DNA from: Clostridiaceae bacterium | GTDB lineage: Bacteria; Bacillota; Clostridia; Saccharofermentanales; DTU023 | NCBI GenBank assembly: GCA_012518845.1 | Contig: JAAYRJ010000052.1 | Span: forward strand, 14,381 to 78,380 | Direction of reading: 5' to 3' | DNA: 64,000 nt | Shown here: piece by piece, positions 312 to 34,791 of the stretch | Numbering within the stretch: the first letter of the stretch is position 1 | How the letters are laid out: each line of letters starts with the position of its first letter | Notes under the pieces: model-generated | The model's database searches: none | The model's input: only the letters and a program-made list of their open reading frames with translations | What the model was told of the DNA's origin: nothing | Position numbers and translations under genes: made by a program

Positions 312-992
312 ATGAAACTACTATACAAAGGCAAAACCAAAGATGTTTATGAGCTAGACGCCGAAACAGTACGTTTGCAGTTTAAGGATGATGTAACTGG
401 TAAAGATGGTATCTTTGATCCTGGGGCAAATGAAATAGCACTGTCAATCGAAGGAATTGGCAAAAGAAATTTAGCTGTCTCAACTTTGTTTTTTGAAAAA
501 TTAGCTACTAACAATATTCCTACCCACTTTATAAGTTCAGATCTTGAAGCAGGTACAATGGATGCAAAAAAATGTACGCCATTTGGCAAAGGCATTGAGA
601 TCATTCAAAGAAAATATGCGGTCGGCTCTTTTTTGCGTCGTTATGGTCTTTATGCAACAGAAATGATGCCACTTAACAATTATGTAGAGATAACCTTAAA
701 AGATGACAAGAGACAAGATCCACTTATAACCGAAGATGGCTTAGTTGCGTTAAATATTTTAACTCATACACAATACGACTCTTTAATAAACCAAACTAAA
801 CAAATTGTCGATATAATAGATAAGTTTTTAGAAGCTAAAAACTTACAATTGATTGATATTAAATTGGAATTTGGTATTGATACTGAGGATAATGTCCTCT
901 TAACTGACGAAATTTCTAGTGGTAATATGAGAGTTTACCGAAATGGAGAAAAACTAGAGCCAGCAGAATTGACAGATTTAATTCTTGCTTAG
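312..992 (+). CDS. purC: SAICAR synthase (phosphoribosylaminoimidazole-succinocarboxamide synthase)
   Basis: MKLLYKGKTKDVYE N-terminus typical of PurC. The ATG at 312 is preceded by GGGAGGG (302-308). The ORF-track TTG start at 273 lies inside the terminator T-tract. Confidence 0.93.
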   Translation: MKLLYKGKTKDVYELDAETVRLQFKDDVTGKDGIFDPGANEIALSIEGIGKRNLAVSTLFFEKLATNNIPTHFISSDLEAGTMDAKKCTPFGKGIEIIQRKYAVGSFLRRYGLYATEMMPLNNYVEITLKDDKRQDPLITEDGLVALNILTHTQYDSLINQTKQIVDIIDKFLEAKNLQLIDIKLEFGIDTEDNVLLTDEISSGNMRVYRNGEKLEPAELTDLILA

Positions 993-1015: not shown

Positions 1016-1498
1016 ATGAAAGTTGCTATTATAATGGGCAGTAGTTCAGATTATGAGATTGCTCAAAAAGCTTTTCCGCTTTTAGAAAAATTTAACATCC
1101 CATATTTTGTTAGAGTTATTTCAGCTCATCGAGCTCTTGAGATGCTACAAGAATGTGTATCAGAGTTTGAACAAGAAAATGTAAAATGCGTCATTGCTTT
1201 AGCAGGTAAGGCTGCTCATTTACCAGGTGTAGTAGCTGGAATGACAGTTTTACCAGTGATTGGTGTACCAATCAAGGGCTCAGCTTTTTTAGGACTTGAT
1301 TCATTAATGTCTATTGTTCAAATGCCTAAAGGGGTACCGGTTGCTACAGTTGCGGTTGACGCAGCAGACAATGCTGCTATTTTAGCAGCTCAAATCCTTG
1401 CTATTAACTCCAACGACATTACACAAAAATTAAAAGTTTACAAACAAGAATTAGCTGAACATGTCGTTCAACAAGACAAGGAAATCAATACTATATGA
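1016..1498 (+). CDS. purE: N5-CAIR mutase, class I PurE
   Basis: SAHR and AGKAAHLPGV motifs are class I type rather than the class II SAHK/AGRSNGLG type. RBS AAGGAGA lies upstream. Confidence 0.92.
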   Translation: MKVAIIMGSSSDYEIAQKAFPLLEKFNIPYFVRVISAHRALEMLQECVSEFEQENVKCVIALAGKAAHLPGVVAGMTVLPVIGVPIKGSAFLGLDSLMSIVQMPKGVPVATVAVDAADNAAILAAQILAINSNDITQKLKVYKQELAEHVVQQDKEINTI

Positions 1499-2793
1499 GT
1501 GGAATAGTAGGTGTGAGTACTGATAAATCAGTTGTAGCTGCCCATCCTATTATTTATGGGGTATATGCATTACAGCATCGTGGACAGGTAAATACAGGTG
1601 TTGCTTTGTTAGATAATAATCAGTTGGTTGTTAGAAAAGGCTCTGGACAGATTAATGCTTTATTTCCAGATAATATTTCAATGAATATACCAGGAGATAG
1701 GGGTCTAGGTCACGTCAAATATGGCGAGTATTTACAATATGATATTGAACAACCGATATTGCCAAAAGAATATAAAATTAATGGAACAAATTGTCTGATT
1801 ACAATAGATGGCAATATTTTAAACAAAGACTTTTCTTTACACGATTTGGCTCTAGCTTTAAATTCATCTTTGCAAACAGGCAAAGAATATCTGAGTAAAT
1901 TGCAAGGTGCTTTTGCAGGAGTTTATCTGGATCCTTATAAAATGATAGGTTTTCGAGATCCGGTTGGTTTAAAACCACTGTATGCAGGTAAGTTTGATCA
2001 TGGTTATATTTTAGCCTCGGAAACTTGTGCAATTGATTCTACGGGTGCAGATTTAATTCAATCCGTAGACAATGGTGAAATGGTTGTAATTCAAAAAGAC
2101 AAGATTGATTTTTATCGTTACACAGAAAAATTACCAAAGAAAAAATGTATCTTTGAACTTGTTTATATCTCAAGACCGGATAGCTATTTTGATGGATTAT
2201 CTGTCTATCAAGCTAGAAGTCAGATGGGCAAGATTTTATATGAAGAATATCCAACAAGTGCTGATATTGTTATGGGTGCACCAGACTCAGGTCTAATAGC
2301 AGCTGTAGGATATGCTGAAGAATCTAAAATTCCCTATAAAGATGGTATTATAAAAAACAGATATGTAGGTAGAACCTTTTTAACTACAGATGAAAGTGAA
2401 CGCAAAACAGATATTTTTATTAAATTTAATCCAATTAAGGAAGTATTAAGAGATAAAGAAATTGTTTTAGTTGATGATTCAATAATCAAAGGTTCAACTA
2501 TCAAACGAACTATAAAAATGTTAAGAAATGCTGGCGCAAAAAAAATTCATGTTCGAATTTCTTCACCAATTTTGAGGTTCCCTTGCAATTTATCTATGGA
2601 TATTCCAAATGTTAATGACCTAATGGCACATCAAAAAGATGTTGAAGAAATTCGCCAAGAAATTAACGCAGATTCACTTTATTATCTTTCGATGGAGGGT
2701 TTACTTAAAGCTTGTGGACAAGATGATTTTTGTGATCACTGTTTTACAAATAATTATCCAATCAAACCATATGAGGAGGGACTATGGGTTTAA
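1495..2793 (+). CDS. purF: Amidophosphoribosyltransferase (Fe-S type) with a degenerate Ntn glutaminase site
   Basis: LQHRGQ, RDPxGxxPL, PRTase loop VLVDDSIIKGST, and cluster Cys residues (KKC, FPC, CDHC) are present. The start ATG overlaps the purE stop (ATATGA). The protein begins MSGIVG, not MCGIVG. Confidence 0.9.
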   Translation: MSGIVGVSTDKSVVAAHPIIYGVYALQHRGQVNTGVALLDNNQLVVRKGSGQINALFPDNISMNIPGDRGLGHVKYGEYLQYDIEQPILPKEYKINGTNCLITIDGNILNKDFSLHDLALALNSSLQTGKEYLSKLQGAFAGVYLDPYKMIGFRDPVGLKPLYAGKFDHGYILASETCAIDSTGADLIQSVDNGEMVVIQKDKIDFYRYTEKLPKKKCIFELVYISRPDSYFDGLSVYQARSQMGKILYEEYPTSADIVMGAPDSGLIAAVGYAEESKIPYKDGIIKNRYVGRTFLTTDESERKTDIFIKFNPIKEVLRDKEIVLVDDSIIKGSTIKRTIKMLRNAGAKKIHVRISSPILRFPCNLSMDIPNVNDLMAHQKDVEEIRQEINADSLYYLSMEGLLKACGQDDFCDHCFTNNYPIKPYEEGLWV

Positions 2794-3836
2794 CATATAA
2801 GGATTCTGGTGTAGATAAAGAAGCTGGCTATAAACAAGTTAAATTAATCAAAGACATGCTCAAGTCGACTTATACTTCTGGTGTTATTACTGACATAGGT
2901 GGATTTGGTGGTATGTTTCGTTCACCTCAATCAGAGTATGAAAAACCAATTTTGGTTTCGGGTACAGATGGGGTTGGTACAAAATTAGATTTAGCTTTTA
3001 GGACCGATATTCATAATACAGTTGGTATTGATTGCGTTGCCATGTGTGTTAACGATATTTTATGCCAAGGGGCAAAACCATTGTTTTTCCTAGATTATAT
3101 TGCAACAGGCAAATTAATTCCTACAAAGATGGCAGAAATTGTTTCTGGTGTAGTTGAAGGTTGCAAGCAATCAGGCATGGCTTTAATTGGTGGTGAAACT
3201 GCTGAAATGCCGGGCATATACCAAGAAAATCATTATGATTTAGCTGGTTTTGCAGTTGGAATGGTTGATGAAGCAAAAGTTATCGTACCAGAGCGGGTAC
3301 AGGCCGGTGACAAATTAATAGGTCTCCCATCTAGTGGTATTCACTCTAATGGTTTTTCGCTCGTAAGAAAAATAATTTTTGAGCTGCAAAATAAGAGTTT
3401 AGAAGAGTATATACCGGAATTAGATCAAACTTTGGGCAAAAATCTTTTGACGCCAACTAAAATTTATGTAGATGCTGTTTTACCATTAATTGATAAATTT
3501 GATTTGCATGGTATCTGTCATATTACAGGCGGTGGTATTATCGAAAATTTACCAAGAGCTTTAGGACAAAATCAAACAGCTCTTGTAGATCTTTCAGATT
3601 TTGAAATTCCAGCCATATTTAAGCTACTAGCCAAGTGGGGCAAGATAGAAACTAAAGAAATGTTTAATACATTTAACATGGGTATTGGTATGATTTTGAT
3701 TGTAGGAGAGGAAGATTATTCTGCCGTAACTGACGATCTAAATGAACGTCAACAGGATTTCGTTGAAATGGGAGAAGTACTATTAGGTGACGAAGATATC
3801 GAAATTAAATATTCTGACGATTGCTTAGAAATTTAA
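2784..3836 (+). CDS. purM: AIR synthase (phosphoribosylformylglycinamidine cyclo-ligase)
   Basis: YKDSGVDKEAGY, GTDGVGTK and GGETAEMP motifs. The start overlaps the purF end, after GAGGAGGGA. Confidence 0.93.
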   Translation: MGLTYKDSGVDKEAGYKQVKLIKDMLKSTYTSGVITDIGGFGGMFRSPQSEYEKPILVSGTDGVGTKLDLAFRTDIHNTVGIDCVAMCVNDILCQGAKPLFFLDYIATGKLIPTKMAEIVSGVVEGCKQSGMALIGGETAEMPGIYQENHYDLAGFAVGMVDEAKVIVPERVQAGDKLIGLPSSGIHSNGFSLVRKIIFELQNKSLEEYIPELDQTLGKNLLTPTKIYVDAVLPLIDKFDLHGICHITGGGIIENLPRALGQNQTALVDLSDFEIPAIFKLLAKWGKIETKEMFNTFNMGIGMILIVGEEDYSAVTDDLNERQQDFVEMGEVLLGDEDIEIKYSDDCLEI

Positions 3837-3853: not shown

Positions 3854-4474
3854 ATGAAAAAAATTGCCGTGTTGCTTTCGGGTGGTGGATCTAATTTACA
3901 AAGTTTAATTGACAGTCAAAAAGTTGGCTATTTTAAAGGTGAAATAAAACTTGTAATCTCAAATAATAAAAATGCTTTTGGGCTCGAAAGGGCCAGCAAT
4001 AACAACATAGAAGCTATCTATCTCAACAAAGAAGATTATCCGAATAATGAACAATATGATCGTCAAATTTTGAGCCTATTTAAGCAGTATAAAATTGATC
4101 TGGTTGTATTAGCAGGATATCTAAGATATGTAACGCCTGTTTTGCTTGAAGCCTATCCCAATCGTATTATTAATATCCATCCTTCTTTATTACCAGCCTT
4201 TGGAGGCAAGAATTTTTATGGCTCTAAAGTACATGAAGCTGTTTATCAAAGAGGTGCAAAAATTTCTGGAGCAACTGTTCATTTTATTGATGAGGGCCAA
4301 GATACTGGACCGATTATTATTCAAGAGAGTTTGCCGTTAGATCAAGATTGGCAACCAGAAGAAATCGGTCAAGCAGTACTAAAAATAGAACATAAAATAC
4401 TACCTTTAGCAGTTAAATATTTTTGTGATGAGAAATTAACAGTTAAAAATAAGCGTGTTTATATCAAAGCTTAA
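3854..4474 (+). CDS. purN: GAR formyltransferase
   Basis: KIAVLLSGGGSNLQ, HPSLLPAFGG and GATVHFIDEGQDTGPII. The ATG at 3854 is preferred over the TTG at 3821, which overlaps the purM end. Confidence 0.92.
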   Translation: MKKIAVLLSGGGSNLQSLIDSQKVGYFKGEIKLVISNNKNAFGLERASNNNIEAIYLNKEDYPNNEQYDRQILSLFKQYKIDLVVLAGYLRYVTPVLLEAYPNRIINIHPSLLPAFGGKNFYGSKVHEAVYQRGAKISGATVHFIDEGQDTGPIIIQESLPLDQDWQPEEIGQAVLKIEHKILPLAVKYFCDEKLTVKNKRVYIKA

Positions 4475-4529: not shown

Positions 4530-5786
4530 ATGAAAGTATTAATAATAGGGAGTGGTGGGCGTGAACACGCTATAGCGGATAGTTTGATTAAAAATGACAG
4601 AATAGAAACTGTTTATTTTTTAACTCATAATGGTGCTGCAAAAGGCAAATTAAAAAATGCCAATTTCCCTGATAATAGTAAAAATTCGATTGATCAATTT
4701 TTGTTGAAGTATCCAGTAGAGCTTGTGATAGTGGGTCCAGAACAACCACTTTCTGAAGGCATAGTTGATTATATTCAAGAAAAAGGTATTAAAGTTTTTG
4801 GTCCACATAAAAAGGCTGCCAGATTAGAAGCGAGTAAAGCTTTTGCCAAACGATTTATGGAGGAACAAAATATTCCAACTGCTAAATATATTGAGTATGA
4901 CAATTATGAATCAGCTCTTAATGGTCTAGATAATTTTGAATTTCCTTTAGTAATTAAAGCCGATGGCCTTTGTGCAGGCAAAGGTGTTGTTATTTGCCAA
5001 AATTATTCTGAGGCCAAAAAAGCTTTAGCCGATATGTTTAAAGAAAAGATTTTTGGTGACCAAGCCCAAACAGTTATTATAGAGGAATTTTTGTCTGGAT
5101 TTGAAGCCTCTTTACTTTGTTTTGTTTCAGGTTCCAAAATATACCCTTTAGACACTGCTATGGATTATAAGAAAATTTATGAAAATGATCTTGGACCAAA
5201 TACTGGTGGTGTAGGGATGATATCACCTAATCCATACTGGAACAGTAATTTACAATCTCAATCGGATATTATTATTAAAAAAATAGAAAATGGTCTAAGC
5301 CAGAGAGGTCTTGAGTATAGTGGAATATTATTTATTGGATATTTGATTGAAGATGGAAAAATCTATGTTCTAGAATTTAATGTGCGTTTTGGTGATCCTG
5401 AAACAGAAGCTCTTTTGCCACGTCTTCATTCTGATTTATTAGAGAATATAGAAGAATCAATTAATCGTTTGCCTGTTAATTTAAAGTTTGATAATAAAGT
5501 AGCATTGGCAACTTTATTAGTTTCAAAAGGTTATCCCGCTTCATTTGAGAAAGGCAAAGTTATTTCAGGCTTAGAAGATTGTGACCCTGATATTAAGATT
5601 TATCACAATGGGACAAAAAATATTGATGATAAAATTTTAAGTAACGGTGGACGAGTACTGTCTATAGTCGCAGTTAAAGATACATTAGAAGAGGCAAGAG
5701 AAGCTGTTTATCAAAATATTCCTAAAATTTCATTTGAAAATATGAGCTATCGAACAGACATTGGCCAACTCAAAAATTATGATTAA
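4530..5786 (+). CDS. purD: Phosphoribosylamine-glycine ligase (GAR synthetase)
   Basis: MKVLIIGSGGREHA N-terminus, ATP-grasp core and GDPETE motif. Confidence 0.94.
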   Translation: MKVLIIGSGGREHAIADSLIKNDRIETVYFLTHNGAAKGKLKNANFPDNSKNSIDQFLLKYPVELVIVGPEQPLSEGIVDYIQEKGIKVFGPHKKAARLEASKAFAKRFMEEQNIPTAKYIEYDNYESALNGLDNFEFPLVIKADGLCAGKGVVICQNYSEAKKALADMFKEKIFGDQAQTVIIEEFLSGFEASLLCFVSGSKIYPLDTAMDYKKIYENDLGPNTGGVGMISPNPYWNSNLQSQSDIIIKKIENGLSQRGLEYSGILFIGYLIEDGKIYVLEFNVRFGDPETEALLPRLHSDLLENIEESINRLPVNLKFDNKVALATLLVSKGYPASFEKGKVISGLEDCDPDIKIYHNGTKNIDDKILSNGGRVLSIVAVKDTLEEAREAVYQNIPKISFENMSYRTDIGQLKNYD

Positions 5787-5798
5787 TTTTTGAGTTGG
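5765..5798. terminator. Perfect 14-bp hairpin between convergent purD and the acyltransferase gene
   Basis: CCAACTCAAAAATT (5765-5778), 6-nt loop, AATTTTTGAGTTGG (5785-5798). It includes the purD stop codon. The flanking U-tracts are poor. Confidence 0.5.
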
Positions 5799-5808
5799 TT
5801 ATTAGCTT

Positions 5809-7677: not shown

Positions 7678-7683
7678 AATCTA

Positions 7684-8220: not shown

Positions 8221-8267
8221 ATAGTCTCCTGTTATAAAAAATATTTGTTAATTATTCCTGATATTAT

Positions 8268-9290: not shown

Positions 9291-9374
9291 TTAAAACTCC
9301 ATTTTGTAACAAATATGTAATAATAATACCATAAATTGATGTTTATTTATTTTTATATTTTTTTATTATATTGA

Positions 9375-21771: not shown

Positions 21772-21867
21772 TCTTTTATCGCTTTACCACTTTAGCGAGA
21801 TAAAGTAAAATTGTTATCAGAAAACATTTGTTATAGATTAATGCTATTATTTTTATTGGAGAAAAAG

Positions 21868-22680
21868 ATGTCTAATCAAGTAATTTTAGAAAAATTTAAT
21901 TTGGCGATTGAGTATATGACTTTGCTTGCTGAGTATAACTATAAATTAATCGATCTTAATATGATTGAACCTTTTCGAATTGAGGACAAAGAATTTCAAC
22001 CTAGTAGTCTTGTATTTGAGAGAAATGAAACTATGTATGCTATTCGAAGTGACTGGACAAGGTCACTGTTAAATTATAATGATAGTTATTTTCTTGATGA
22101 TCGTATGTTTTGTTATTTTGGAACTGTTATTCGTGATTATCAATCTTTTTATCAGGCGGGTGTTGAACTTTACGAACCAAGCGAAGTAGAAATGCTAAAA
22201 AGTATTCAAATTCATTTAGACTTTGTTAAAAATAAAATAAGAAATCAAGGTAAAAATATAACGGCTTTAATTCTAAATAATGATCGATTTATTGATTTGT
22301 TTATTGAAAAATATGATTTGTCGGAAAGTATTCGTACTTTGATTTATGAAAAAAATCTGAGTGAATTAAAAAATCAGCTTGAGCCTGATAATCCTCTCTT
22401 AAAAATTCTACAAGCAAGAGTTAGCGAGCAGTATACTTTGCTAGCGAGCGAATTTTCGAATACAGAAGAATTGCAAACTATTGAAAAAATCAAAAAAATA
22501 GCAGATCAAGAAAATCTTAAGTTTATGATAGACTTGTCGTTTAAATCACCTCAGGGCTATTACAATGGTTTATATTTTCAGGCTTTCATAAATTATCATA
22601 CCCCAATTTTAAGTGGTGGTGAGTACGATAATCGGGCTTTTGGTATTGCCCTCAATATTGAAGATGGAGGACTTTTATGA
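21868..22680 (+). CDS. hisZ: ATP phosphoribosyltransferase regulatory subunit (short HisZ)
   Basis: HisRS-like motifs (IRSDWTRS, YQAGVELY, GGEYDN). It is translationally coupled to the short-form hisG. The ATG at 21868 follows GGAG. Confidence 0.75.
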   Translation: MSNQVILEKFNLAIEYMTLLAEYNYKLIDLNMIEPFRIEDKEFQPSSLVFERNETMYAIRSDWTRSLLNYNDSYFLDDRMFCYFGTVIRDYQSFYQAGVELYEPSEVEMLKSIQIHLDFVKNKIRNQGKNITALILNNDRFIDLFIEKYDLSESIRTLIYEKNLSELKNQLEPDNPLLKILQARVSEQYTLLASEFSNTEELQTIEKIKKIADQENLKFMIDLSFKSPQGYYNGLYFQAFINYHTPILSGGEYDNRAFGIALNIEDGGLL

Positions 22681-23282
22681 TTACTGTTGCCTTGCCTAAA
22701 GGTAGATTATTAAAAGAAGTTATTGCATATTTAGAGTCCTGTGACCTAAAAAAATATGCAGATAAACTTGATCCAAAATCACGACTACTCTTTACGGATG
22801 TTGATGGAATCCGTTTTGTTTATGCTAAAGGCAGAGATGTGCCTACCTATGTTGAATCAGGAATAGCCGATTTAGGTTTTATTGGTTCTGACATTATTAC
22901 TGAAAACAAATTTGAATTGTTAAATGTGTCGCAACTGCCATTTGGCTATTGTCGTTTTTCATTATGTGGTTTACCAGGTGTTAAGCAATTTAAGAGTGTA
23001 GCCACAAGCTTTTACAATATTTCTTTTCAATATTTTAAAAAGAAAAAACAGCAAGTTTCATTTATCCATTTACACGGCTCGGTTGAGCTTGCACCTTTAT
23101 TAGGTTTAGCAGACGGAATCGTCGATATTGTCCAAACAGGTAGCACTTTAAAAGCAAATGGTTTGATTGAGTATGAAACGATTATGGATGTCCAGGCTTG
23201 TTTAATTGCTAATAGGCAAACATTTTATACAAAAGAAGCTGAAGTTTATCCTTTTTTGAAAAAGTTAGGAGTTTTTGAATAA
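22677..23282 (+). CDS. hisG: ATP phosphoribosyltransferase, short form
   Basis: ITVALPKGRL N-terminus and DIVQTGSTLKANGL motif. At 201 aa it is the HisZ-dependent type. Confidence 0.92.
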   Translation: MITVALPKGRLLKEVIAYLESCDLKKYADKLDPKSRLLFTDVDGIRFVYAKGRDVPTYVESGIADLGFIGSDIITENKFELLNVSQLPFGYCRFSLCGLPGVKQFKSVATSFYNISFQYFKKKKQQVSFIHLHGSVELAPLLGLADGIVDIVQTGSTLKANGLIEYETIMDVQACLIANRQTFYTKEAEVYPFLKKLGVFE

Positions 23283-24541
23283 TGAAATTAGAGTTACCTG
23301 AAATTCAGGCTGCTAGAGAATATCTTGCTCAGTTTTCCCAAGTTAAAGAAGCCGAAGATCAAGAATCTTTAAGCCAAGTAATGGATATTCTGCAAAATGT
23401 TCGCAAGTATGGTGATAACGCTTTATTTGAATATACAGAGAAATTTGATGGTCAGAAATTAGAGAAGTTTAAAGTTCCAGAAACGTGGCTCGAGCAAAGT
23501 TATCTTGCACTGGAGCCAGAGTTGCGTCAAGCATTGGAATTTATTAAGCAGCGAATTCAAAAGTACGAAGAACAAATAAAATATAAAGACAAAGAATTAA
23601 CTGAATTTAAATATGTCTATCATCCGATTGAAAAAGTAGGTTTCTATGTCCCAGGCGGCACAGCTTTATATCCATCATCTGTACTTATGAGTATTATTGC
23701 TGCTCAGGTAGCCGGCGTGCCCAAGATCTATGCAGTTACACCAACTTTTGAAGAAAATAATATTACATTTGCAACTCTTTATATTTGCGGCGTGACGAAT
23801 GTTTATCAAATAGGTGGAGCTCAAGCAATTGCAGCTTTAGCCTATGGCACCGAGAGCATTCCTAAAGTCGATAAAATTGTAGGCCCAGGAAATCGTTATG
23901 TAGCTTTAGCAAAACGATTAGTCTTTGGTGAAGTTGGAATTGATTCTATAGCTGGACCTAGTGAAATTTTGCTTTATATTGATGAAAATGTTGATCCAGA
24001 ATCAATTACATTAGATATTTTTGCTCAAGCAGAACATGATCCAGATGCTAAAACTTTTTTATTAGCAGAAAATAAAAAGATTTTGAAAGATATACATGCT
24101 TTGATTGTGAAAAAACTGCCTGAGCAAAAACGTAGTGATATTATTACTCAGTCAATTAATAATAATCATTATTCCATTATTGGTGAAGCAAAAGATTTAA
24201 TTGCTATTATTAATCAGATAGCACCAGAGCATGTTTCGATCCAACATGCAAATTCAGACGAAATAATTTCAAAAATCCATTATGCTGGTGCAATTTTTAA
24301 GGGCAATTACTCGCCAGAGGCCATAGGCGATTATGTGGCAGGACCATCCCATGTCTTACCAACAAGTGGTAGTGCCAGATTTAGTCATGGTCTTAATGTA
24401 AATGATTTTTTGACTAGTCATGCAATTATAGATATTGAACCTGAAACTTATCAGCAAATTGCTCCGTATGGGATCAAAGTCGCATATGCGGAAGGACTTT
24501 ACGCACATGCCGAAAGTTTAGAGGCAAGATTAAAAGAATAA
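23282..24541 (+). CDS. hisD: Histidinol dehydrogenase
   Basis: IAGPSEIL, QAEHD and PEHV motifs. Confidence 0.94.
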   Translation: MKLELPEIQAAREYLAQFSQVKEAEDQESLSQVMDILQNVRKYGDNALFEYTEKFDGQKLEKFKVPETWLEQSYLALEPELRQALEFIKQRIQKYEEQIKYKDKELTEFKYVYHPIEKVGFYVPGGTALYPSSVLMSIIAAQVAGVPKIYAVTPTFEENNITFATLYICGVTNVYQIGGAQAIAALAYGTESIPKVDKIVGPGNRYVALAKRLVFGEVGIDSIAGPSEILLYIDENVDPESITLDIFAQAEHDPDAKTFLLAENKKILKDIHALIVKKLPEQKRSDIITQSINNNHYSIIGEAKDLIAIINQIAPEHVSIQHANSDEIISKIHYAGAIFKGNYSPEAIGDYVAGPSHVLPTSGSARFSHGLNVNDFLTSHAIIDIEPETYQQIAPYGIKVAYAEGLYAHAESLEARLKE

Positions 24542-24582
24542 TATTTTATTGAATAAAATACCTAGTGAAAGAGAAGAACAAT

Positions 24583-25572
24583 ATGATAATCATGAATCGT
24601 AATACCAGTCCCATCAAGCCTTTGACAGATGAACAAATTTTTAATGCTGTGAAAAAAACAAATTATAATCAATATCCAGATCAGGAACGAATAAATTTTA
24701 TTAATTTATATGCCGATTATTTTGGCTTTAATCCAGACAATATAGAAGTAGCTAATGGCTCTGATGAATGGATTCAAAAATTGATTATAACGCTTGGTAA
24801 AAACGGGGTAATGTCTTTAAATCCCGATTTTGTGATGTATCAAATCTATACAGAACAATTTTTGCCAGAAATTTATTTTGTTAATGCTGAGCCTGATTTT
24901 ACCTTTGATTTTGATAAAGTAATTGTTGCCATCAAAGCTAAAAAACCTTCATTATTTTTAATATCTAATCCACAAAATCCAACCGGTACGATGTTTAGTA
25001 CCCAAGATTTGCAACGTTTAGCTGATGCTATGGCAGAGGTTGATGGTTATCTTGGCTTAGACGAGTGTTATATTGATTTTGCTAAAGATTACGAACGACC
25101 AAAGGGAAAAAATATTATTATTCTCAGAACTTTAAGTAAAGTTTATGGGATGGCAGGCTTGCGTGTAGGGATGGCAATTGCGGAAAAAGAAACTTTGGAT
25201 ATAATCACTCAAATAAATCATCCTTACCCTTTAAATTCACTAGCGTTAAATTTAGCCAGTGAATTGTTTTCGGATAAAAAAGCTTTACAAAAATTCAAAA
25301 ATTATCAATTTGAGAGTAAAGCTAGATTAGAGACAGCCTTAGATCAAGTTTCAGATTTAATGGAAATAAAAGAATCTTATACTAATTATATTTTTACTTA
25401 TGGTGATGCTGCAATAGATATGGCAAACTTTTTATTGGATAAAGGATTTTTGAGTCGCATCTATGATGTACCGATCTTACAAAATGCAGCTCGTTATTCA
25501 ATTATCAAATTAGAAGAATATCAAGCATTAAATGAGGCAATTATAGAATGGAGAAATCAGTATGTTGAGTAG
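24583..25572 (+). CDS. hisC: Histidinol-phosphate aminotransferase
   Basis: SNPQNPTG and LSKVYGMAGLRVG motifs. The start is uncertain (GTG 24565, ATG 24583 or ATG 24592). Confidence 0.88.
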   Translation: MIIMNRNTSPIKPLTDEQIFNAVKKTNYNQYPDQERINFINLYADYFGFNPDNIEVANGSDEWIQKLIITLGKNGVMSLNPDFVMYQIYTEQFLPEIYFVNAEPDFTFDFDKVIVAIKAKKPSLFLISNPQNPTGTMFSTQDLQRLADAMAEVDGYLGLDECYIDFAKDYERPKGKNIIILRTLSKVYGMAGLRVGMAIAEKETLDIITQINHPYPLNSLALNLASELFSDKKALQKFKNYQFESKARLETALDQVSDLMEIKESYTNYIFTYGDAAIDMANFLLDKGFLSRIYDVPILQNAARYSIIKLEEYQALNEAIIEWRNQYVE

Positions 25573-26143
25573 GAAAAGAGAAACGCTAGAAACTAAAATC
25601 GAATTGAAATTAGCCGAGCAAACAGATACAAATGAAAGATCGGAAATAGATACAGGTATAGGTTTTTTTGATCATATGCTTACTTTGTTGGCATTTCACT
25701 CCAATTTATTTTTATCGGTTAAGGCTGATGGTGATTTAGAAGTAGATTTTCACCATACAGTTGAAGATACTGGTATTGTTCTTGGTGAATTAATTTATGA
25801 GCTATATCAAAGCAAAAAGTCTTTTGGACGTTATGGTTTTTTCTACTTGCCGATGGATGAATCTTTAGCAAGAGTCACACTTGATTTATCTGGACGACCA
25901 GGTTTTTATTTTAACTGTAATTTTGCTAGTGAAAAAGTTGGAGAGTTTGATACGGAACTTGTTAAAGAGTTCTTCAATGCGGTGGCAATGAATGCGAAAA
26001 TGACTTTGCATATTGATTTGTTAAAAGGTGGAAATAGCCATCATGAAATTGAAGCTGTCTTTAAGGCATTTGGTCGTAGCCTGGCTATTGCCTTAGAAAC
26101 CAAAACAGGTGGAGTGCCATCTTCCAAAGGGGTGATTGCATGA
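25562..26143 (+). CDS. hisB: Imidazoleglycerol-phosphate dehydratase
   Basis: GIGFFDHML, HHTVEDTGI and GGNSHHEIEA motifs. Monofunctional (193 aa). Confidence 0.94.
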   Translation: MLSRKRETLETKIELKLAEQTDTNERSEIDTGIGFFDHMLTLLAFHSNLFLSVKADGDLEVDFHHTVEDTGIVLGELIYELYQSKKSFGRYGFFYLPMDESLARVTLDLSGRPGFYFNCNFASEKVGEFDTELVKEFFNAVAMNAKMTLHIDLLKGGNSHHEIEAVFKAFGRSLAIALETKTGGVPSSKGVIA

Positions 26144-26847
26144 TTGATATTATTCCAGCAATAGATTTAATCGAAGGTCAAAGTGTTAGATTAGAACAAG
26201 GCGATTATCAAACAAAATCCTTAATGCCAAGAACAGCTAAAGAAGCGATAAAATTTTACAATCAATTTGAACAAGTTAAAGGGATTCATATTATTGATCT
26301 TCTAGCAGCTAAGGAAAAAAAGGCAAAAGAGATGGATTTGATTTCAGAACTTAGGGCTTTGACAGATTTGCCAATACAAATTGGTGGTGGTTTGAGAAAT
26401 GAAGAAACAATTCGGTTTTACGATAGTAAAGGCATTGACTACTTTATTTTAGGTACAAAAGCAATAACAGATTTTGCTTGGCTAGAAGAGATGACAAACT
26501 TATTTCCAGCCCGAATTATAGTTGGCATTGATGCTAGAGACGATTATATTTATATAAATGGCTGGACAGAGAATTCCGGTATTCAAATTCCAGATCATTT
26601 AGCAAAAATTGAAAAACTTAATTTGCAAGGAATTATTTATACAGATATCGCTAAAGATGGGATGAATAAAGGTCCCAATTTTGAAAAAACTGCCGCCTTA
26701 GCTAAAAATACAAGACATAAAGTAATTGCTAGCGGTGGAGTACGTGATAATTCAGATTTGAAAAAGTTAGCAGCACTTGAAATACCAGCGGCAATTGTTG
26801 GTAAAGCAGCTAACACAGATGCTTTTTGGCAATCAATTGTTGATTAG
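26140..26847 (+). CDS. hisA: ProFAR isomerase
   Basis: IIPAIDL, QIGGGLR and ASGGV motifs. Its ATG overlaps the hisB stop (ATGA), leaving no room for hisH. Confidence 0.92.
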   Translation: MIDIIPAIDLIEGQSVRLEQGDYQTKSLMPRTAKEAIKFYNQFEQVKGIHIIDLLAAKEKKAKEMDLISELRALTDLPIQIGGGLRNEETIRFYDSKGIDYFILGTKAITDFAWLEEMTNLFPARIIVGIDARDDYIYINGWTENSGIQIPDHLAKIEKLNLQGIIYTDIAKDGMNKGPNFEKTAALAKNTRHKVIASGGVRDNSDLKKLAALEIPAAIVGKAANTDAFWQSIVD

Positions 26848-26856
26848 AGGGCAGAC

Positions 26857-27624
26857 ATGATAGAGAAAACAAGAAAAATTCTTCCTTGTCTTGATATAAG
26901 AAATGGGAAAGTAGTTAAAGGTGTAAATTTTGAAAATATTAGAGAAATGGGCGATCCAGTCGAGTTGGCAACCAAATATGGAGCGGCAGGAGCTGATGCC
27001 CTAGCTTTTTTAGATATAACAAAAACTAAAGAGAAGCATGGATTTTATCTAGATCTAATTTCTGAAATTACAAGCAACATTGAGATTCCGCTATTTGTGG
27101 GTGGAGGTATTAGCACGCTTAAAGATATTAATTTAATATTAAATGCTGGTGCCAGCAAAGTTAGTATTGCTTCTGCAGCTCTAACAAATCCTAACTTTAT
27201 CTCAGATGCAGCTTCTGAATTTGGACACGACAAAATAATTATTGCATTAGATGTTGCCCAAGATTTAGCTGACAATAAATATTATGCTTATACTCATGGA
27301 GGTCAGAAAAAAACAGATTTTGAAGTGTTTGAACTAATTGAAAAATTTGACCAAATTGGAGTGTCAGCATTTTTGATTACGGGAATTTCATTTGATGGCT
27401 CAAAATCTGGCTTTGACCTTGCTTTTTTTAAAGAAGCAGGAAAAAGAACAAATACAACTTTAATCGCAAGTGGTGGTGCTGGAAAAATTGAAGATTTCGT
27501 TGATTTATTTCAAAAAACAAATGTTGAATATAGTTTAGCAGCTTCTATTTTTCATCAAAACACAGTAAATATTAGAGAGCTAAAACAAAATTTAGCTTCG
27601 AAAAACATTAATGTTAATCTGTAA
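26857..27624 (+). CDS. hisF: Imidazole glycerol phosphate synthase cyclase subunit
   Basis: ILPCLDIRNGKVVKG, VGGGI and ASGGAG motifs. The catalytic Asp equivalents (D13, D132) are present. Confidence 0.93.
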   Translation: MIEKTRKILPCLDIRNGKVVKGVNFENIREMGDPVELATKYGAAGADALAFLDITKTKEKHGFYLDLISEITSNIEIPLFVGGGISTLKDINLILNAGASKVSIASAALTNPNFISDAASEFGHDKIIIALDVAQDLADNKYYAYTHGGQKKTDFEVFELIEKFDQIGVSAFLITGISFDGSKSGFDLAFFKEAGKRTNTTLIASGGAGKIEDFVDLFQKTNVEYSLAASIFHQNTVNIRELKQNLASKNINVNL

Positions 27625-27679
27625 TTTCTCTCTAGAAAAAAGCAAAATTTCCAAACTAATTAAAAGCGAAAGGATTATT

Positions 27680-28303
27680 ATGCAACCTGATTTTACAAAA
27701 AATAATGGCTTGTTATCTGTTATTTTACAGGACTTTGATACAAAACAAGTTTTAATGAATGGCTTTATGAATGAAGAAGCCTATAAATTAACCAAACAAG
27801 AAAATGTTGTTTGGTTTTATTCTAGATCAAAACAACGTCTTTGGAAAAAAGGGGAATCAAGTGGCCATGTTCAACATGTTGTAGAAATGACACTTGATTG
27901 TGATCAAGATGCCCTTCTAATTCAAGTTGTTCCGGCTGGACCAACTTGCCATCTTGGCAATACCAGTTGTTTTGATGATCCTTATTTTAATCTGGAAATT
28001 CTAGAAAAAACTATTCAAGATCGCATAAAAAATCCTAAAGAGGGTTCCTATACAAAATATTTGTTGGAACAAGGTTTAGATAAAATTTTGAAAAAAAGCA
28101 GTGAAGAAATGACCGAAACTATAATCGCTAGTAAAAATCAGGATAAAAATGAGATAATAGCAGAAGCATCGGATTTACTTTACCATGTAATTTTATTGTT
28201 AAATTCTCAAAAAATTTCTTTGAATGATGTCAAAGAAAATTTAGCAAAAAGACATGGCAAGGTACAGTCTTACAAGCGTCGAAAAGAAATTACAAATTGG
28301 TAA
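27680..28303 (+). CDS. hisI: Bifunctional PR-AMP cyclohydrolase / PR-ATP pyrophosphatase
   Basis: WFYSRSKQRLWKKGESSGH and DCDQDALL (HisI part), and a C-terminal HisE helix bundle (EASDLLYHVILLL). The ATG at 27680 follows AAAGGA. Confidence 0.9.
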   Translation: MQPDFTKNNGLLSVILQDFDTKQVLMNGFMNEEAYKLTKQENVVWFYSRSKQRLWKKGESSGHVQHVVEMTLDCDQDALLIQVVPAGPTCHLGNTSCFDDPYFNLEILEKTIQDRIKNPKEGSYTKYLLEQGLDKILKKSSEEMTETIIASKNQDKNEIIAEASDLLYHVILLLNSQKISLNDVKENLAKRHGKVQSYKRRKEITNW

Positions 28304-34000: not shown

Positions 34001-34791
34001 AAAGTAATAGGTTTTTCACGCTTTAATTTTGATCTAACCTCAAGGTATTCTTGATAAGAATTTTCAAGCAGCTCATCTTCGAAAGTAACTTTATCAATAT
34101 TTGTCAAAAAGGTAGTATGACGACAATGATCAGACCAGTAGGTATCGATAACTCTAATTTCAGTTAGAGTAGGATTGCGTTTTTCATTCTTAAAATAATC
34201 TTGACAGAATAACAAATCGTCAAGGTCCATTGCTAATTCATATTTGTCCAAAAACTGATTTAAACCTGTTTTGTCTAAATTAATAAAATCTTGTAAAACT
34301 TCGACATTTGCCGGTTCTTCGTACTTAAGTTGTAGAGTTTCATACTCTCCTAGTCTAGCTTCTCTAGATTCGATAGGATTAATAATATGTTCTTTAATAG
34401 CGACGAGGTTTTCTTGTGTAAGATCACCACTCAATACATAAACTTTTGCAAACCGAACTAGCGGTTTTTCTGTTTGAGTTACAAGTTGTATACACTCAGC
34501 AGCAAAATCAGCTCTTTGATCATATTGACCCGGTAATAGTTCTACTACAAAAACATAATCCGTATGATCATACTCTAACGTTTCATATACCATATCAACA
34601 GGTGCTTCGGAAAATATTGTTGTTTTTATTGATTCAAAGACTTCCTCTGAGATGTTTTCTACATCATATCGATTGATGATTCGTAAGTTATTGATACCAT
34701 CAATCTCAAGAAGTGATATAATTTCTGATTTAAGAAGTAAAGCTTCTGTAGCTAATTCTTGTTTTTTTTCGGAATATACACGATAGACCAT
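31075..34791 (-). CDS. purL: Large single-chain FGAM synthase (PurS-like + PurL + PurQ-like domains) with a mutated glutaminase nucleophile
   Basis: 1238 aa. ETHNHPT, DFGAGG and GGKDSMSG are synthetase motifs. The C-terminal class I GATase-like domain (about 31075-31869) has GIGNGFQ, AHSEGRF and GHSER. Confidence 0.92.
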   Translation of the reverse strand: MVYRVYSEKKQELATEALLLKSEIISLLEIDGINNLRIINRYDVENISEEVFESIKTTIFSEAPVDMVYETLEYDHTDYVFVVELLPGQYDQRADFAAECIQLVTQTEKPLVRFAKVYVLSGDLTQENLVAIKEHIINPIESREARLGEYETLQLKYEEPANVEVLQDFINLDKTGLNQFLDKYELAMDLDDLLFCQDYFKNEKRNPTLTEIRVIDTYWSDHCRHTTFLTNIDKVTFEDELLENSYQEYLEVRSKLKREKPITLMDLGTIVAKFLRENGQLDKLDVSDEINACTVKIDIEINGELEEWLLLFKNETHNHPTEIEPFGGAATCLGGAIRDPLSGRSYVYAAMRVTGAANPLDNKPVFEGKLPQRKITTVAADGYSSYGNQIGLATGKVAELYHPGYAAKRMEIGAVVAATPAENVRRETPVADDVVILIGGRTGRDGLGGATGSSKSHTVDSFETSGAEVQKGNAPEERKLQRLFRNKQVSQLIKRCNDFGAGGVSVAVGELAAGLKINLDLVPTKYKGLDGTELAISESQERLAVVVAPEDADRFIKLAESENVEATVIAVVTEEPRLVMHWRDQKIVDLSREFMDSNGAQKHIQIETVKPQTYQKSAPQSDFKANMEGLVTDLNVCSKRGLAEQFDSTAGAGTILMPYGGKYQRTPIQAMAHQISVENHETENCSLMAFGFNPYISEKSPYHGAYLAVVESIAKLIAAGSDLNEIYLTFQEYFERLENDPKRWGKPFAALLGAFQAQMDYKIAAIGGKDSMSGSFEHLDVPPTLVSFAVTTDYSKNIISPEFKKPEHQVYVLEPFENNNLPEKISQLALFEYIVNAIRDGEVLAAYTPGHGGIAEAIFKMTLGNRVGFEFEQDICQTELFKYNYGSFVIELKDTLDLSAFNSEQFVVKKLGQTTGKYQLSFQNTILEIDELEKLYENKLESVFRTKAPENKTSIPEISCKLNETLKANVTIENPKVLLPVFPGTNGEYEAAKAWLQAGAEPEIFIIKNLKPNSIQESVQKLTQKIKESQIIFLSGGASAGDEPEGAAKFITTFLRKPQIRLAIEDLLENRDGLILGIGNGFQALIKLGLLPYGKFVDLKPNAPTLTYNTIQRHQSKIVRTKVVSNKSAWLANAELGKIYQVPIAHSEGRFIADEATLNELIKNGQIATQYVDMAGKPSYEIEYNPSGSIYAIEGITSPDGRIFGKMGHSERIGKHLYKNVVGEYDLGLFKSAVDYFK

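What the first reader, a model, noticed from the sequence alone, without database searches (positions are those of the whole stretch)
1495..1815. PurF begins MSGIVG: Ntn nucleophile Cys1 replaced by Ser, with further glutaminase-site drift
Class II (Ntn) amidotransferases use the N-terminal Cys (MCGIVG in E. coli; CGVFG after propeptide removal in B. subtilis). Here codon 2 is AGT (Ser).

No alternative start exists: an in-frame TGA lies at 1456-1458, and no ATG/GTG/TTG lies between it and 1495.

Other glutamine-site positions have also changed relative to E. coli as I recall its sequence.
- HVRYxTAG has become HVKYGEY.
- The oxyanion-hole motif HNGN has become IDGN (Asp105, GAT at 1807-1809).

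The PRTase domain and the four Fe-S cysteines look normal. In E. coli PurF, Cys1 substitutions abolish glutamine-dependent activity but keep NH3-dependent activity.
Basis: partly seen in the sequence, partly recalled or inferred. Interest (0 to 1): 0.7.

Follow-up and report, generated by a model that had tools for sequence, protein, structure and literature searches.

The report
Cysteine-less PurF, probably ammonia-fed
The first enzyme of purine synthesis in this biogas-reactor bacterium lacks the cysteine it would need to take nitrogen from glutamine. This is not an error: it belongs to a large, conserved, apparently undescribed group of such enzymes that most likely use free ammonia instead.

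Summary
ORF 1495-2793 is an intact PurF that starts MSGIVG (Ser codon AGT at 1498-1500), and no upstream start is possible.

It is neither a sequencing error nor random drift.
- The identical protein occurs on 11 contigs.
- 118 of the 120 closest homologues start with Ser.
- Across 239 PurFs, Ser1 is coupled to a change of the oxyanion-hole Asn to Asp/Glu: 124 Ser+Asp/Glu, 111 Cys+Asn, 4 exceptions among Ser1 or Cys1 proteins.
- Most Ser1 proteins form one old clade in Tissierellia, some Clostridia and Treponema phagedenis.

The window protein belongs to a "short" subgroup. It has also lost the loop carrying glutamine-binding Asp127 and has Arg→Lys at the other glutamine-binding residue. The PRPP site, the four Fe-S cysteines, Tyr74 and the QHRGQ motif are kept.

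In 10 of 10 related loci that carry purL in the operon, that PurL has no glutaminase triad. The window's own PurL comes from a different, canonical lineage and has independently changed Cys→Gly. The window's his operon has no hisH.

Best explanation: an ammonia-dependent PurF within an ammonia-fed purine pathway (confidence about 0.65). Biochemistry was not tested, and a second canonical purF elsewhere in the genome is not excluded. I rate it a new variant of a known kind.

The parts
1495..2793 (+). purF homologue, 432 aa, short Ser1/Asp form. It has an Ntn-type N-terminal domain and a PRTase domain. Its start overlaps the purE stop (ATGA), and its end overlaps the purM start.
   Evidence: TIGR01134 scores 340.7 bits against a cut-off of 350. 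The best PDB match is 1AO0, E = 1.9e-90. The AF2 model has pLDDT 90.8 and TM 0.87 to 1AO0.
1498..1500 (+). Ser2 codon AGT. Ser becomes the N-terminal residue after Met removal and stands in place of the Cys1 nucleophile.
   Evidence: Ser is invariant in the 127 Ser1 proteins of the alignment, and the codon is AGY in all loci read.
1717..1719 (+). Lys75, in place of the glutamine-carboxylate-binding Arg (E. coli Arg73, B. subtilis Arg72). Tyr76, the coupling and channel residue equivalent to E. coli Tyr74, is kept next to it.
   Evidence: Lys in 92% of short forms, Arg in 95% of canonical PurFs.
1807..1812 (+). Asp105-Gly106, in place of the oxyanion-hole Asn-Gly (E. coli Asn101-Gly102).
   Evidence: Asp/Glu in 124 of 127 Ser1 proteins, Asn in 111 of 112 Cys1 proteins.
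1822..1836 (+). Deletion junction (…DGNILN|KDFSL…). About 15 residues of the canonical domain are missing, including the SDTE motif with glutamine-amino-binding Asp127.
   Evidence: B. subtilis positions 108-116, 119-121 and 125-127 have no counterpart in the window protein. All 49 short forms share the deletion.
2146..2742 (+). Span containing the four [4Fe-4S] ligand codons (C218 at 2146-2148, C364 at 2584-2586, C413 at 2731-2733, C416 at 2740-2742) and the PRPP-binding loop DDSIIKGS (2473-2496).
312..992 (+). purC. The probable start is the ATG at 312; the ORF is open from 273.
1016..1498 (+). purE
   Evidence: TIGR01162, 195.7 bits.
2784..3836 (+). purM
3854..4474 (+). purN. The probable start is the ATG at 3854.
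4530..5786 (+). purD. It uses the phosphoribosylamine made by PurF.
31075..34791 (-). Single-chain FGAM synthase (PurL), 1238 aa, of the canonical clostridial lineage. The nucleophile of its glutaminase triad is replaced by Gly.
   Evidence: TIGR01857, 1804 bits.
31555..31557 (-). Gly1079 codon GGC (motif GIGNGFQ), where 119 of the 120 closest homologues have Cys (GICNGFQ). The His and Glu of the triad (GHSER) are still present.
   Evidence: The same Gly is in an independent, 96%-identical sequence (P0269) and in the NCBI MAG protein P0509.
21811..28303 (+). his operon hisZ-G-D-C-B-A-F-IE without hisH. hisB ends at 26143 and hisA starts at 26140. HisF is at 26857-27624.
   Evidence: No HisH-like sequence was found anywhere in the window by tblastn. 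HisF has changes at the HisH-facing gate.

Best explanation
The gene encodes the pathway's amidophosphoribosyltransferase in a form that can no longer hydrolyse glutamine. It makes phosphoribosylamine from PRPP and free ammonia.

The N-terminal Ntn domain is kept as a folded, constrained pseudo-glutaminase. It probably still provides the dimer and Fe-S scaffold and the ammonia channel, since Tyr76, the QHRGQ motif and Pro are retained. Its catalytic pocket, however, is remodelled.
- The nucleophile Cys is Ser.
- The oxyanion-hole Asn is Asp.
- The Arg that holds glutamine's carboxylate is Lys.
- The loop with the Asp that holds glutamine's amino group is deleted.

The protein belongs to an old clade of Ser1/Asp PurFs, which are normally encoded beside a PurL whose glutaminase triad is also dead. 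The whole operon therefore appears to be an ammonia-fed version of de novo purine synthesis, suited to ammonia-rich, energy-poor anaerobic habitats. It would save the ATP otherwise spent making glutamine.

What is shown:
- the sequence changes, their conservation and their coupling;
- the intact PRTase domain;
- the operon context;
- the dead or mutated PurL partners.

What is inferred:
- loss of glutaminase activity, from established Ntn-amidotransferase chemistry and the E. coli Cys1 mutants;
- use of free NH3;
- a possible role of Ser1/Asp105 in binding or deprotonating NH4+ at the channel mouth. This last point is speculative.
For: 1. It is a PurF. It has the two-domain match and a confident AF2 model with TM 0.87 to B. 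subtilis PurF. The PRPP loop and four Fe-S cysteines are intact. It sits at the canonical position purC-purE-purF-purM-purN-purD. It is the only PurF-like sequence in the 64 kb.

2. The changes fall on the glutaminase catalytic and glutamine-binding residues. The only positions that are conserved but different between 112 Cys1 and 127 Ser1 PurFs are C1S, N102D, R72K (short forms), R178K, V280A and the Asp127-loop deletion. Second-shell glutamine-site residues are relaxed: Thr75, Gly77, Gln85 and His101.

3. A carboxylate in the oxyanion hole is incompatible with stabilising the tetrahedral oxyanion (established mechanism). E. coli PurF with Cys1 changed to Ser or Ala has no glutamine activity but keeps ammonia activity (Mei and Zalkin 1989, as cited in PMC3261824).

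4. Ala1 and Gly1 variants are nested inside the Ser1 clade, so a nucleophile is not required at that position.

5. The partner enzyme points the same way.
- In 10 of 10 related loci with purL in the operon, PurL has Gly for Cys and no His. These include long and short PurF forms, T. phagedenis, Schnuerera and Tissierellia or Clostridiaceae MAGs.
- All 120 closest homologues of the Schnuerera PurL lack the triad.
- The window's own PurL, of the canonical lineage, has independently changed Cys→Gly.

6. The same window has a his operon with no hisH. Its HisF has lost Asp98 and two gate glutamates that face HisH.

7. The habitat is biogas fermenters and anaerobic digesters.

8. There is a precedent. 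Human CPS1 is ammonia-specific and has Ser in place of the glutaminase Cys (PMC4655335).
Against: - No enzyme data exist for any member.
- Ser is a competent nucleophile in other Ntn hydrolases.
- Strict conservation of Ser1 and Asp/Glu102 shows they do something; a simple dead site would be expected to vary.
- Long-form members keep Arg72 and Asp127, which could mean they still bind an amino acid.
- The N-terminal domain is only slightly less constrained than in canonical PurFs.
- I could not search any whole genome for a second, canonical purF or for a stand-alone glutaminase partner.
- Close relatives of the window's PurL still have Cys, and I could not tell which purF form their genomes carry, so whether a Ser1 PurF always goes with a dead PurL is untested.
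- The window encodes a type III glutamine synthetase, so glutamine is available in the cell.
Confidence: 0.65

Rival explanations
1. Ser1 is a working N-terminal nucleophile, as in penicillin acylase or the Thr of the proteasome. Asp105 helps to activate it, so the enzyme is still a glutamine (or other amide) amidotransferase with altered chemistry.
For: - Ser1 and Asp/Glu102 are invariant and coupled across an old clade.
- Arg26-Gly27, Gly103 and Tyr73 are kept.
- Long forms keep Arg72 and Asp127.
- The N-terminal domain is under near-normal constraint.
- Ser after Met is a good substrate for Met removal (general knowledge).
Against: - The short form in this window has lost the Asp127 loop and has Lys for Arg72.
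- A carboxylate replaces the oxyanion-hole amide.
- Thr75, Gly77 and Gln85 of the glutamine pocket are relaxed even in long forms.
- Ala1 and Gly1 members sit inside the clade.
- The operon partner PurL has Gly at its nucleophile position, which cannot be catalytic.
- E. coli PurF with Cys1 changed to Ser has no glutamine activity (PMC3261824).
Confidence: 0.1
2. It is a paralogue that is not the cell's PRA-forming enzyme. It might be regulatory or have another substrate, while a canonical Cys1 PurF is encoded elsewhere in the genome.
For: - Methanocorpusculum labreanum has such a Ser-bearing second copy, Mlab_0150, beside a canonical one (PMC3261824).
- The window protein scores just below the curated PurF cut-off (340.7 against 350).
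- Whole genomes could not be searched.
Against: - It occupies the canonical purF slot of a complete pur operon in every locus examined.
- The PRPP site and Fe-S ligands are intact.
- There is no second PurF in the 64-kb window or in any of the 20-kb loci.
- The partner PurL is altered in the same sense, which would be odd if the operon were a spare.
Confidence: 0.12
3. The pathway is decaying: the genes are non-functional relics in an organism that salvages purines.
For: - Several glutaminase functions are lost in one window (PurF, PurL, hisH).
- The purF and purC scores are below the curated cut-offs.
Against: - All pur genes are intact ORFs with translational coupling.
- The Ser1 form is conserved over divergence as deep as that among canonical PurFs, with pairs at 40-50% C-domain identity.
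- Catalytic PRTase residues are invariant.
- The window's PurL glutaminase domain shows no accelerated change.
- Only glutaminase residues are hit.
Confidence: 0.04
4. The Ser codon is a sequencing or assembly artefact, or the start is mis-called.
For: AGT differs from TGT by one base.
Against: - An in-frame stop lies 39 nt upstream, with no alternative start.
- The identical protein is on 11 contigs.
- Of the 120 closest homologues, 118 share Ser.
- The codon is AGY in all related loci.
Confidence: 0.01

Closest known systems
Bacillus subtilis glutamine PRPP amidotransferase (PurF; PDB 1AO0, 1GPH)
   Same: - Same two-domain fold (TM 0.87, 36-38% identity).
- Same four [4Fe-4S] cysteine ligands and PRPP loop.
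- QHRGQ, the Tyr74 equivalent and the Gly of the oxyanion hole are present.
- Same position in the pur operon.
   Different: - There is no propeptide and no Cys1: Ser is exposed after Met removal.
- Asn→Asp in the oxyanion hole.
- Arg→Lys at the glutamine carboxylate site.
- The helix and loop carrying Asp127 are deleted.
- The protein is about 25 residues shorter.
- It scores below the TIGR01134 cut-off.
E. coli PurF Cys1 point mutants (Mei and Zalkin 1989, cited in PMC3261824)
   Same: A Cys1→Ser protein with an intact PRTase domain. The mutants lose glutamine-dependent activity but keep NH3-dependent activity, which is the behaviour predicted here.
   Different: Those are laboratory single mutants. 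Here Ser is natural, conserved in a large clade, always accompanied by Asn→Asp and, in the short form, by loss of both glutamine-anchoring residues.
Mlab_0150, the Ser-bearing PurF paralogue of Methanocorpusculum labreanum (Brown et al. 2011, PMC3261824)
   Same: A natural PurF homologue with Ser at the nucleophile position.
   Different: That protein is a recent second copy beside a canonical PurF, and the authors judged it not to be the real PurF. The protein here sits in the pur operon as the only copy seen, and it belongs to a bacterial clade that is separate on the evidence available.
Carbamoyl-phosphate synthetase I (human CPS1; PMC4655335)
   Same: An amidotransferase that keeps a folded but inactive glutaminase domain, has Ser in place of the catalytic Cys, and takes free ammonia from the surroundings.
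   Different: CPS1 has a class I (triad) glutaminase domain and an unrelated synthetase, is eukaryotic, and may admit ammonia by a side tunnel. Here the domain is class II (Ntn), and the entry route is unknown.
AsnB-like enzymes without Cys1 (beta-lactam synthetase 1M1Z, lasso-peptide cyclases)
   Same: A class II amidotransferase fold retained without the N-terminal Cys. They appear as weak matches.
   Different: Those enzymes have changed their reaction and need no nitrogen donor. PurF chemistry still needs one.

Membership tests
Amidophosphoribosyltransferase PurF (EC 2.4.2.14; TIGR01134) | Two-domain architecture: an N-terminal Ntn (class II) amidotransferase fold plus a type I PRTase domain. 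| tested here: met
   Pfam GATase_7 and Pribosyltran; full-length alignment to 1AO0; AF2 model with pLDDT 90.8 and TM 0.87 to 1AO0.
Amidophosphoribosyltransferase PurF (EC 2.4.2.14; TIGR01134) | Score at or above the curated equivalog cut-off (350 bits). | tested here: not met
   340.7 bits. For comparison: canonical P0100 scores 567, long Ser1 forms 479-488, and other short forms 351-388.
Amidophosphoribosyltransferase PurF (EC 2.4.2.14; TIGR01134) | N-terminal Cys nucleophile, exposed by Met or propeptide removal. | tested here: not met
   Ser (AGT at 1498-1500), with no upstream start.
Amidophosphoribosyltransferase PurF (EC 2.4.2.14; TIGR01134) | Oxyanion hole Asn-Gly and glutamine anchors Arg73 and Asp127 (E. 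coli numbering). | tested here: not met
   Asp105-Gly106, Lys75, and the Asp127 loop deleted.
Amidophosphoribosyltransferase PurF (EC 2.4.2.14; TIGR01134) | PRPP-binding loop and catalytic PRTase residues; for the B. subtilis type, four [4Fe-4S] cysteines. | tested here: met
   DDSIIKGS at residues 327-334; C218, C364, C413 and C416 aligned to C236, C382, C437 and C440.
Amidophosphoribosyltransferase PurF (EC 2.4.2.14; TIGR01134) | Genomic context in a de novo purine operon. | tested here: met
   purC-purE-purF-purM-purN-purD. The same or an extended order is found in 13 related loci.
Amidophosphoribosyltransferase PurF (EC 2.4.2.14; TIGR01134) | Catalyses PRPP + N donor → phosphoribosylamine; glutamine-dependent. 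| not testable with these tools
   This needs an enzyme assay with glutamine versus NH4Cl.
Ser1/Asp102 PurF clade (defined in this work) | Ser directly after Met, with Asp or Glu at the oxyanion-hole Asn position. | tested here: met
   Ser2 and Asp105 in the window protein. The pairing is seen in 124 of 127 Ser1 proteins.
Ser1/Asp102 PurF clade (defined in this work) | Groups with the clade on a tree built from the PRTase domain alone. | tested here: met
   On the NJ tree, 63 of 69 non-redundant Ser1 sequences form one clade. I did not list its members. The window protein is placed in it because its closest homologues are short Ser1 forms (59-82% identity). It is a distance tree only, without bootstrap.
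Ser1/Asp102 PurF clade (defined in this work) | Encoded in an operon with a triad-less single-chain PurL (purC-purL-purE-purF). | tested here: not met
   The window has purC-purE-purF with no purL between them, as do L004, L015 and L017. Its PurL lies 28 kb away, belongs to the canonical lineage, and has only the Cys→Gly change.
Ser/Thr-type Ntn hydrolases (functional class) | N-terminal Ser/Thr nucleophile together with an intact oxyanion hole and a substrate-binding pocket. | tested here: inconclusive
   The N-terminal Ser is present. However, the oxyanion Asn is replaced by a carboxylate and the glutamine anchors are lost. Activity cannot be judged from sequence.

The most novel reading that the evidence does not exclude
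The Ser1/Asp PurF and the triad-less PurL together form a dedicated, glutamine-independent purine-synthesis module that has spread among Tissierellia, some Clostridia and Treponema phagedenis.

In this reading, the conserved Ser1/Asp pair is not a dead site. It is a purpose-built ammonium capture and deprotonation site that feeds the old ammonia channel.

The lineage in this window would be extending the same strategy across its genome, through a convergent Cys→Gly change in a canonical PurL and a HisF that works without HisH. This would be an ATP-saving adaptation to ammonia-rich anaerobic digesters.
Probability: 0.3. Interest if true: 0.78.

Novelty: new variant of a known kind. Interest (0 to 1): 0.66.

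Why it matters
Textbook de novo purine synthesis takes two of its nitrogens from glutamine through PurF and PurL. A large natural group of bacteria in which both enzymes have lost their glutaminase nucleophiles would have several consequences.

- **Pathway variant.** It would show that an ammonia-fed version of the pathway is a stable evolutionary solution, not only a laboratory mutant phenotype.
- **Enzymology.** It would give enzymologists natural proteins for studying how external ammonia enters amidotransferase channels.
- **Annotation and modelling.** These proteins are all currently labelled as ordinary glutamine-dependent enzymes. Correcting this would change metabolic models and nitrogen and ATP budgets for digester and gut anaerobes.
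- **A genomic marker.** It would provide a simple marker of adaptation to high ammonia.

It also shows that annotation cut-offs (340.7 against 350 bits here) can hide functionally distinct subfamilies.

Tried and rejected
- **Alternative start or propeptide.** Rejected: there is an in-frame TGA 39 nt upstream and no start codon between it and 1495.
- **Sequencing error.** Rejected.
- **Second PurF in the window.** None found by tblastn.
- **Relaxed selection on the N-terminal domain.** The effect is slight: 0.35-0.39 identity against 0.40-0.42 at matched C-domain identity. "Decaying domain" is therefore rejected.
- **Accelerated change in the window's PurL glutaminase domain after Cys→Gly.** Not seen.
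- **PurL Cys loss as a general property of the TIGR01857 family.** Rejected: 119 of the 120 closest homologues of the window's PurL keep Cys.
- **Genome-contig scan with the single protein.** It gave only 6 close relatives, all MAGs. It could not be repeated with an alignment, so taxonomic breadth rests on source names.
- **Metagenome scan with HisF**, to see whether relatives also lack hisH. It found nothing.
- **Rfam scan of the whole window.** No hits, so no purine riboswitch or T-box is recognisable.
- **Literature.** Seven searches for a described Ser1 PurF clade or an ammonia-dependent PurL returned only the archaeal Mlab_0150 remark. An eighth search gave the CPS1 precedent.
- **Whole-genome check for a second purF or a stand-alone glutaminase.** Not possible with the tools.
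Full report
**1. Observation check**

ORF 1495-2793 (+) encodes 432 aa and starts ATG AGT GGA ATA GTA GGT (M-S-G-I-V-G). Its ATG overlaps the purE stop (ATGA).

An in-frame TGA lies at 1456-1458. None of the twelve codons between it and 1495 is ATG, GTG or TTG. Neither a longer protein nor a B. subtilis-style propeptide ending in Cys can exist.

- H73-V-K75-Y76-G-E-Y replaces HVRYxT.
- I-D105-G-N replaces HNGN (GAT at 1807-1809).
- The four Fe-S cysteines (C218, C364, C413, C416) and the PRPP loop (DDSIIKGS) are present.

**2. Identity of the protein**

Pfam finds a class II amidotransferase domain and a PRTase domain. The NCBI PurF equivalog model TIGR01134 aligns end to end but scores 340.7 bits, just under its 350-bit cut-off.

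The best solved relative is the [4Fe-4S] PurF of B. subtilis (1AO0, E = 1.9e-90). An AlphaFold2 model built on 87 homologues is confident (pLDDT 90.8) and superposes on 1AO0 with TM 0.87.

The gene lies in purC-purE-purF-purM-purN-purD. It is the only PurF-like sequence in the 64 kb.

**3. Not an error, and not a one-off**

The identical protein is on 11 contigs from several assemblies, including a biogas-fermenter metagenome and an NCBI MAG named 'Clostridiaceae bacterium'.

Of the 120 best homologues among 5.8 billion proteins, 118 have Ser at this position and one has Cys; the remaining one is a fragment without the N-terminus. In all related loci read at DNA level the codon is AGY.

Named carriers include Treponema phagedenis, Schnuerera sp., Gudongella sp., Lagierella massiliensis and many Tissierellia or Clostridiaceae MAGs. 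The nearest species-level genomes are anaerobic-digester MAGs, and the closest is named Mageeibacillus sp. UBA5436 (Oscillospiraceae).

**4. A coupled, conserved remodelling**

I aligned 249 PurFs to B. subtilis numbering; 239 of them have Cys or Ser at position 1.

| Position 1 + position 102 | Count |
|---|---|
| Ser + Asp/Glu | 124 |
| Cys + Asn | 111 |
| Exceptions | 4 |

Position 102 is the oxyanion-hole Asn (Asn101 in E. coli). Fisher's test gives p = 1e-63 on raw counts, which is inflated by shared ancestry.

On a neighbour-joining tree from the PRTase domain alone, 63 of 69 non-redundant Ser1 sequences form one clade. An Ala1 member and a Gly1 member are nested inside it, and six Ser1 sequences lie outside as independent events. 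Pairs within the clade go down to 40-50% identity in the PRTase domain, so the clade is old.

Two forms exist.
- **Long forms (443-458 aa)** keep Arg72 and Asp127.
- **Short forms (421-434 aa)**, including the window protein, have Lys for Arg72. They lack about 15 residues (B. subtilis 108-127) that carry the SDTE motif with Asp127.

TIGR01134 scores fall stepwise: canonical 567, long 479-488, short 351-388, window 340.7.

**5. What is kept and what is lost**

Across the whole protein, few positions are conserved but different between canonical and Ser1 PurFs. They are Cys1→Ser, Asn102→Asp, Arg72→Lys (short forms), Arg178→Lys, Val280→Ala and the deletion.

Second-shell residues of the glutamine pocket are relaxed even in long forms.
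- Thr75: T in 101 of 112 canonical, against T31/S20/F12 and others in long forms.
- Gly77.
- Gln85.
- His101.

By contrast, QHRGQ (24-28), Gly32, Gly48, His70, Tyr73 (E. coli Tyr74, the coupling and channel residue), Pro86, Gly103, Arg/Asp172-173 and Ser-Glu193-194 stay invariant.

At matched PRTase-domain divergence, the N-terminal domain is only slightly less conserved than in canonical PurFs: 0.35-0.39 against 0.40-0.42. The domain is therefore maintained, but its catalytic pocket has been specifically changed.

**6. The partner enzyme**

In related loci the operon is purC-purL-purE-purF-purM-purN-(purH)-purD.

In all 10 such loci the single-chain PurL lacks its class I glutaminase triad. 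The nucleophile-elbow Cys is Gly, the His is Ser, Leu or another residue, and the Glu is usually Asp. The loci comprise:
- long forms L011 and L012;
- short forms L001-3 (T. phagedenis), L006-9, L013 and L016.

All 120 closest homologues of the Schnuerera PurL have no Cys (119 Gly, 1 Asn) and no His at these positions. They span 59-100% identity and include cultured Tissierella praeacuta, T. carlieri, T. pigra and Gudongella oleilytica. Where tested, these PurLs match the FGAM-synthase model at 1045-1552 bits against a cut-off of 1057. L012 and L001 pass it, and L009 falls just below.

The window differs. No purL lies between purC and purE. The PurL at 31075-34791 (-) belongs to the canonical clostridial lineage (TIGR01857, 1804 bits), yet it reads GIGNGFQ where 119 of its 120 closest homologues read GICNGFQ. 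The Gly codon is GGC at 31555-31557.

Only a 96%-identical sequence from another assembly shares the Gly. His and Glu are still there, and the domain shows no accelerated change. This is a recent, independent loss of the same nucleophile to the same residue.

**7. Other signs in the window**

The his operon is hisZ-G-D-C-B-A-F-IE (21811-28303), with hisB directly overlapping hisA. No hisH is found anywhere in the 64 kb.

HisF scores below its curated cut-off (266 against 294.6 bits). The result:
- the cyclase aspartates are kept;
- Asp98, which switches on HisH, is Ser;
- gate residues Glu46 and Glu167 are Ala, and Arg5 is Lys.

In locus L016, a genome with a short Ser1 PurF and a triad-less PurL, a neighbouring AsnB-like gene starts MAGIVGF, with Ala for Cys1.

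The window also encodes a type III glutamine synthetase, so glutamine itself is made.

**8. Most likely mechanism**

- **Shown:** an intact PRTase and Fe-S scaffold in the pathway's purF slot, with the glutaminase nucleophile, the oxyanion-hole amide and both glutamine anchors replaced or deleted. The partner amidotransferase is altered in the same way.
- **Established knowledge:** Ntn amidotransferases need Cys1 and the Asn/Gly oxyanion hole. E. coli PurF with Cys1 changed to Ser or Ala loses glutamine activity but retains NH3 activity (PMC3261824, citing Mei and Zalkin 1989). From my own knowledge, PurL without PurQ and HisF without HisH also work with ammonia in vitro.
- **Inferred:** this PurF makes phosphoribosylamine from PRPP and free ammonia. 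The N-terminal domain serves as scaffold and probably as channel. The Ser1/Asp105 pair may bind or deprotonate NH4+, or lock the domain in an active-like state. Using NH3 directly would save the ATP spent on glutamine, a plausible advantage in ammonia-rich digesters.

I put about 0.65 on this explanation.

**9. Rival explanations**

| Rival | Confidence | Main argument |
|---|---|---|
| Working Ser nucleophile | 0.10 | For: strict conservation of Ser and Asp. Against: carboxylate in the oxyanion hole, lost glutamine anchors, Ala1/Gly1 clade members, Gly in PurL |
| Non-PurF paralogue with a canonical copy elsewhere | 0.12 | Cannot be excluded without whole genomes. Unlikely given operon position and the altered partner |
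| Pathway decay | 0.04 | Contradicted by deep conservation and intact ORFs |
| Artefact | 0.01 | Refuted |

**10. Comparison with what is known**

The protein works like the E. coli Cys1 mutants and like CPS1. CPS1 keeps an inactive glutaminase domain with Ser for Cys and uses free ammonia (PMC4655335).

As to membership, it is a PurF by fold, PRTase site, Fe-S ligands and context. It fails the glutaminase-defining features and, marginally, the curated score.

The only published mention of a Ser-bearing PurF I found is the archaeal paralogue Mlab_0150, which its authors dismissed as not the real PurF. Seven full-text searches found no description of this bacterial clade or of triad-less PurL operons. 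The library does not cover all journals.

**11. Verdict**

The finding is real and more interesting than a single substitution. It is a new variant of a known enzyme kind and part of what looks like an ammonia-fed purine pathway.

The main gaps are the absence of biochemistry and of whole-genome checks for a second purF.

Noticed in passing
window 31075-34791 (-), codon 31555-31557: The single-chain FGAM synthase (PurL) has Gly1079 where 119 of its 120 closest homologues have the catalytic Cys of the glutaminase triad (GIGNGFQ against GICNGFQ). His and Glu are kept. A 96%-identical sequence from another assembly shares the Gly.
   Followed up: yes
window 21811-28303 (hisB/hisA junction at 26140-26143): The his operon is hisZ-G-D-C-B-A-F-IE with no hisH, the glutaminase subunit of IGP synthase. 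No HisH-like sequence occurs anywhere in the window.
   Followed up: partly
window 26857-27624: HisF scores below its curated cut-off (266 against 294.6 bits). Compared with T. maritima HisF, it has Asp98→Ser, Glu46→Ala, Glu167→Ala and Arg5→Lys at the HisH-facing gate, while the catalytic Asp11 and Asp130 are kept.
   Followed up: partly
L001-L003, L006-L009, L011-L013, L016 (purL genes between purC and purE): There is a large family of single-chain PurL proteins with no glutaminase triad (Gly for Cys, no His). It is always encoded next to Ser1 PurF. All 120 closest homologues of the Schnuerera protein share this, including cultured Tissierella and Gudongella species.
   Followed up: yes
L016 1-560 (-): In a genome with a Ser1 PurF and a triad-less PurL, a neighbouring AsnB-like gene begins MAGIVGF, with Ala in place of the Ntn Cys1.
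   Followed up: no
window 312-992: purC scores only 112.5 bits against the TIGR00081 cut-off of 189.9. This divergent SAICAR synthase type is shared with the T. phagedenis and Tissierellia operons (53-80% identity).
   Followed up: no
L001-L003 (Treponema phagedenis) 4997-11284: This spirochaete carries purC-purL-purE-purF of the same type as Tissierellia and Clostridia (PurF 45% and PurL 41% identical to the window's), with no purM, purN or purD downstream. This suggests horizontal transfer of the module.
   Followed up: no
proteins P0127, P0143, P0172, P0159, P0182, P0194: Other natural N-terminal variants exist near the family.
- Ala1 (MAGIFG) and Gly1 (MGGVFG) lie inside the Ser1 clade.
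- Propeptide-plus-Ser forms (…EESGIFG) and Ser1 forms that keep Asn lie outside it.
- One Cys1 protein has Glu at the oxyanion position.
   Followed up: partly
short-form PurF alignment: About 9 of 49 short-form Ser1 PurFs have also lost three of the four Fe-S cysteine ligands (Glu, Tyr, Tyr). In the window's subgroup the PRPP-loop Arg is Lys (DDSIIKGS).
   Followed up: no
window 1-64000: No Rfam family reaches its gathering score anywhere in the 64 kb. There is no purine riboswitch ahead of purC and no T-box ahead of the his, aro or thr genes.
   Followed up: no
window 28429-30980: A 220-aa ORF with a C-terminal P-II-like domain lies directly upstream of a 626-aa fused UmpA/UmpB-like cation/proton antiporter.
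   Followed up: no
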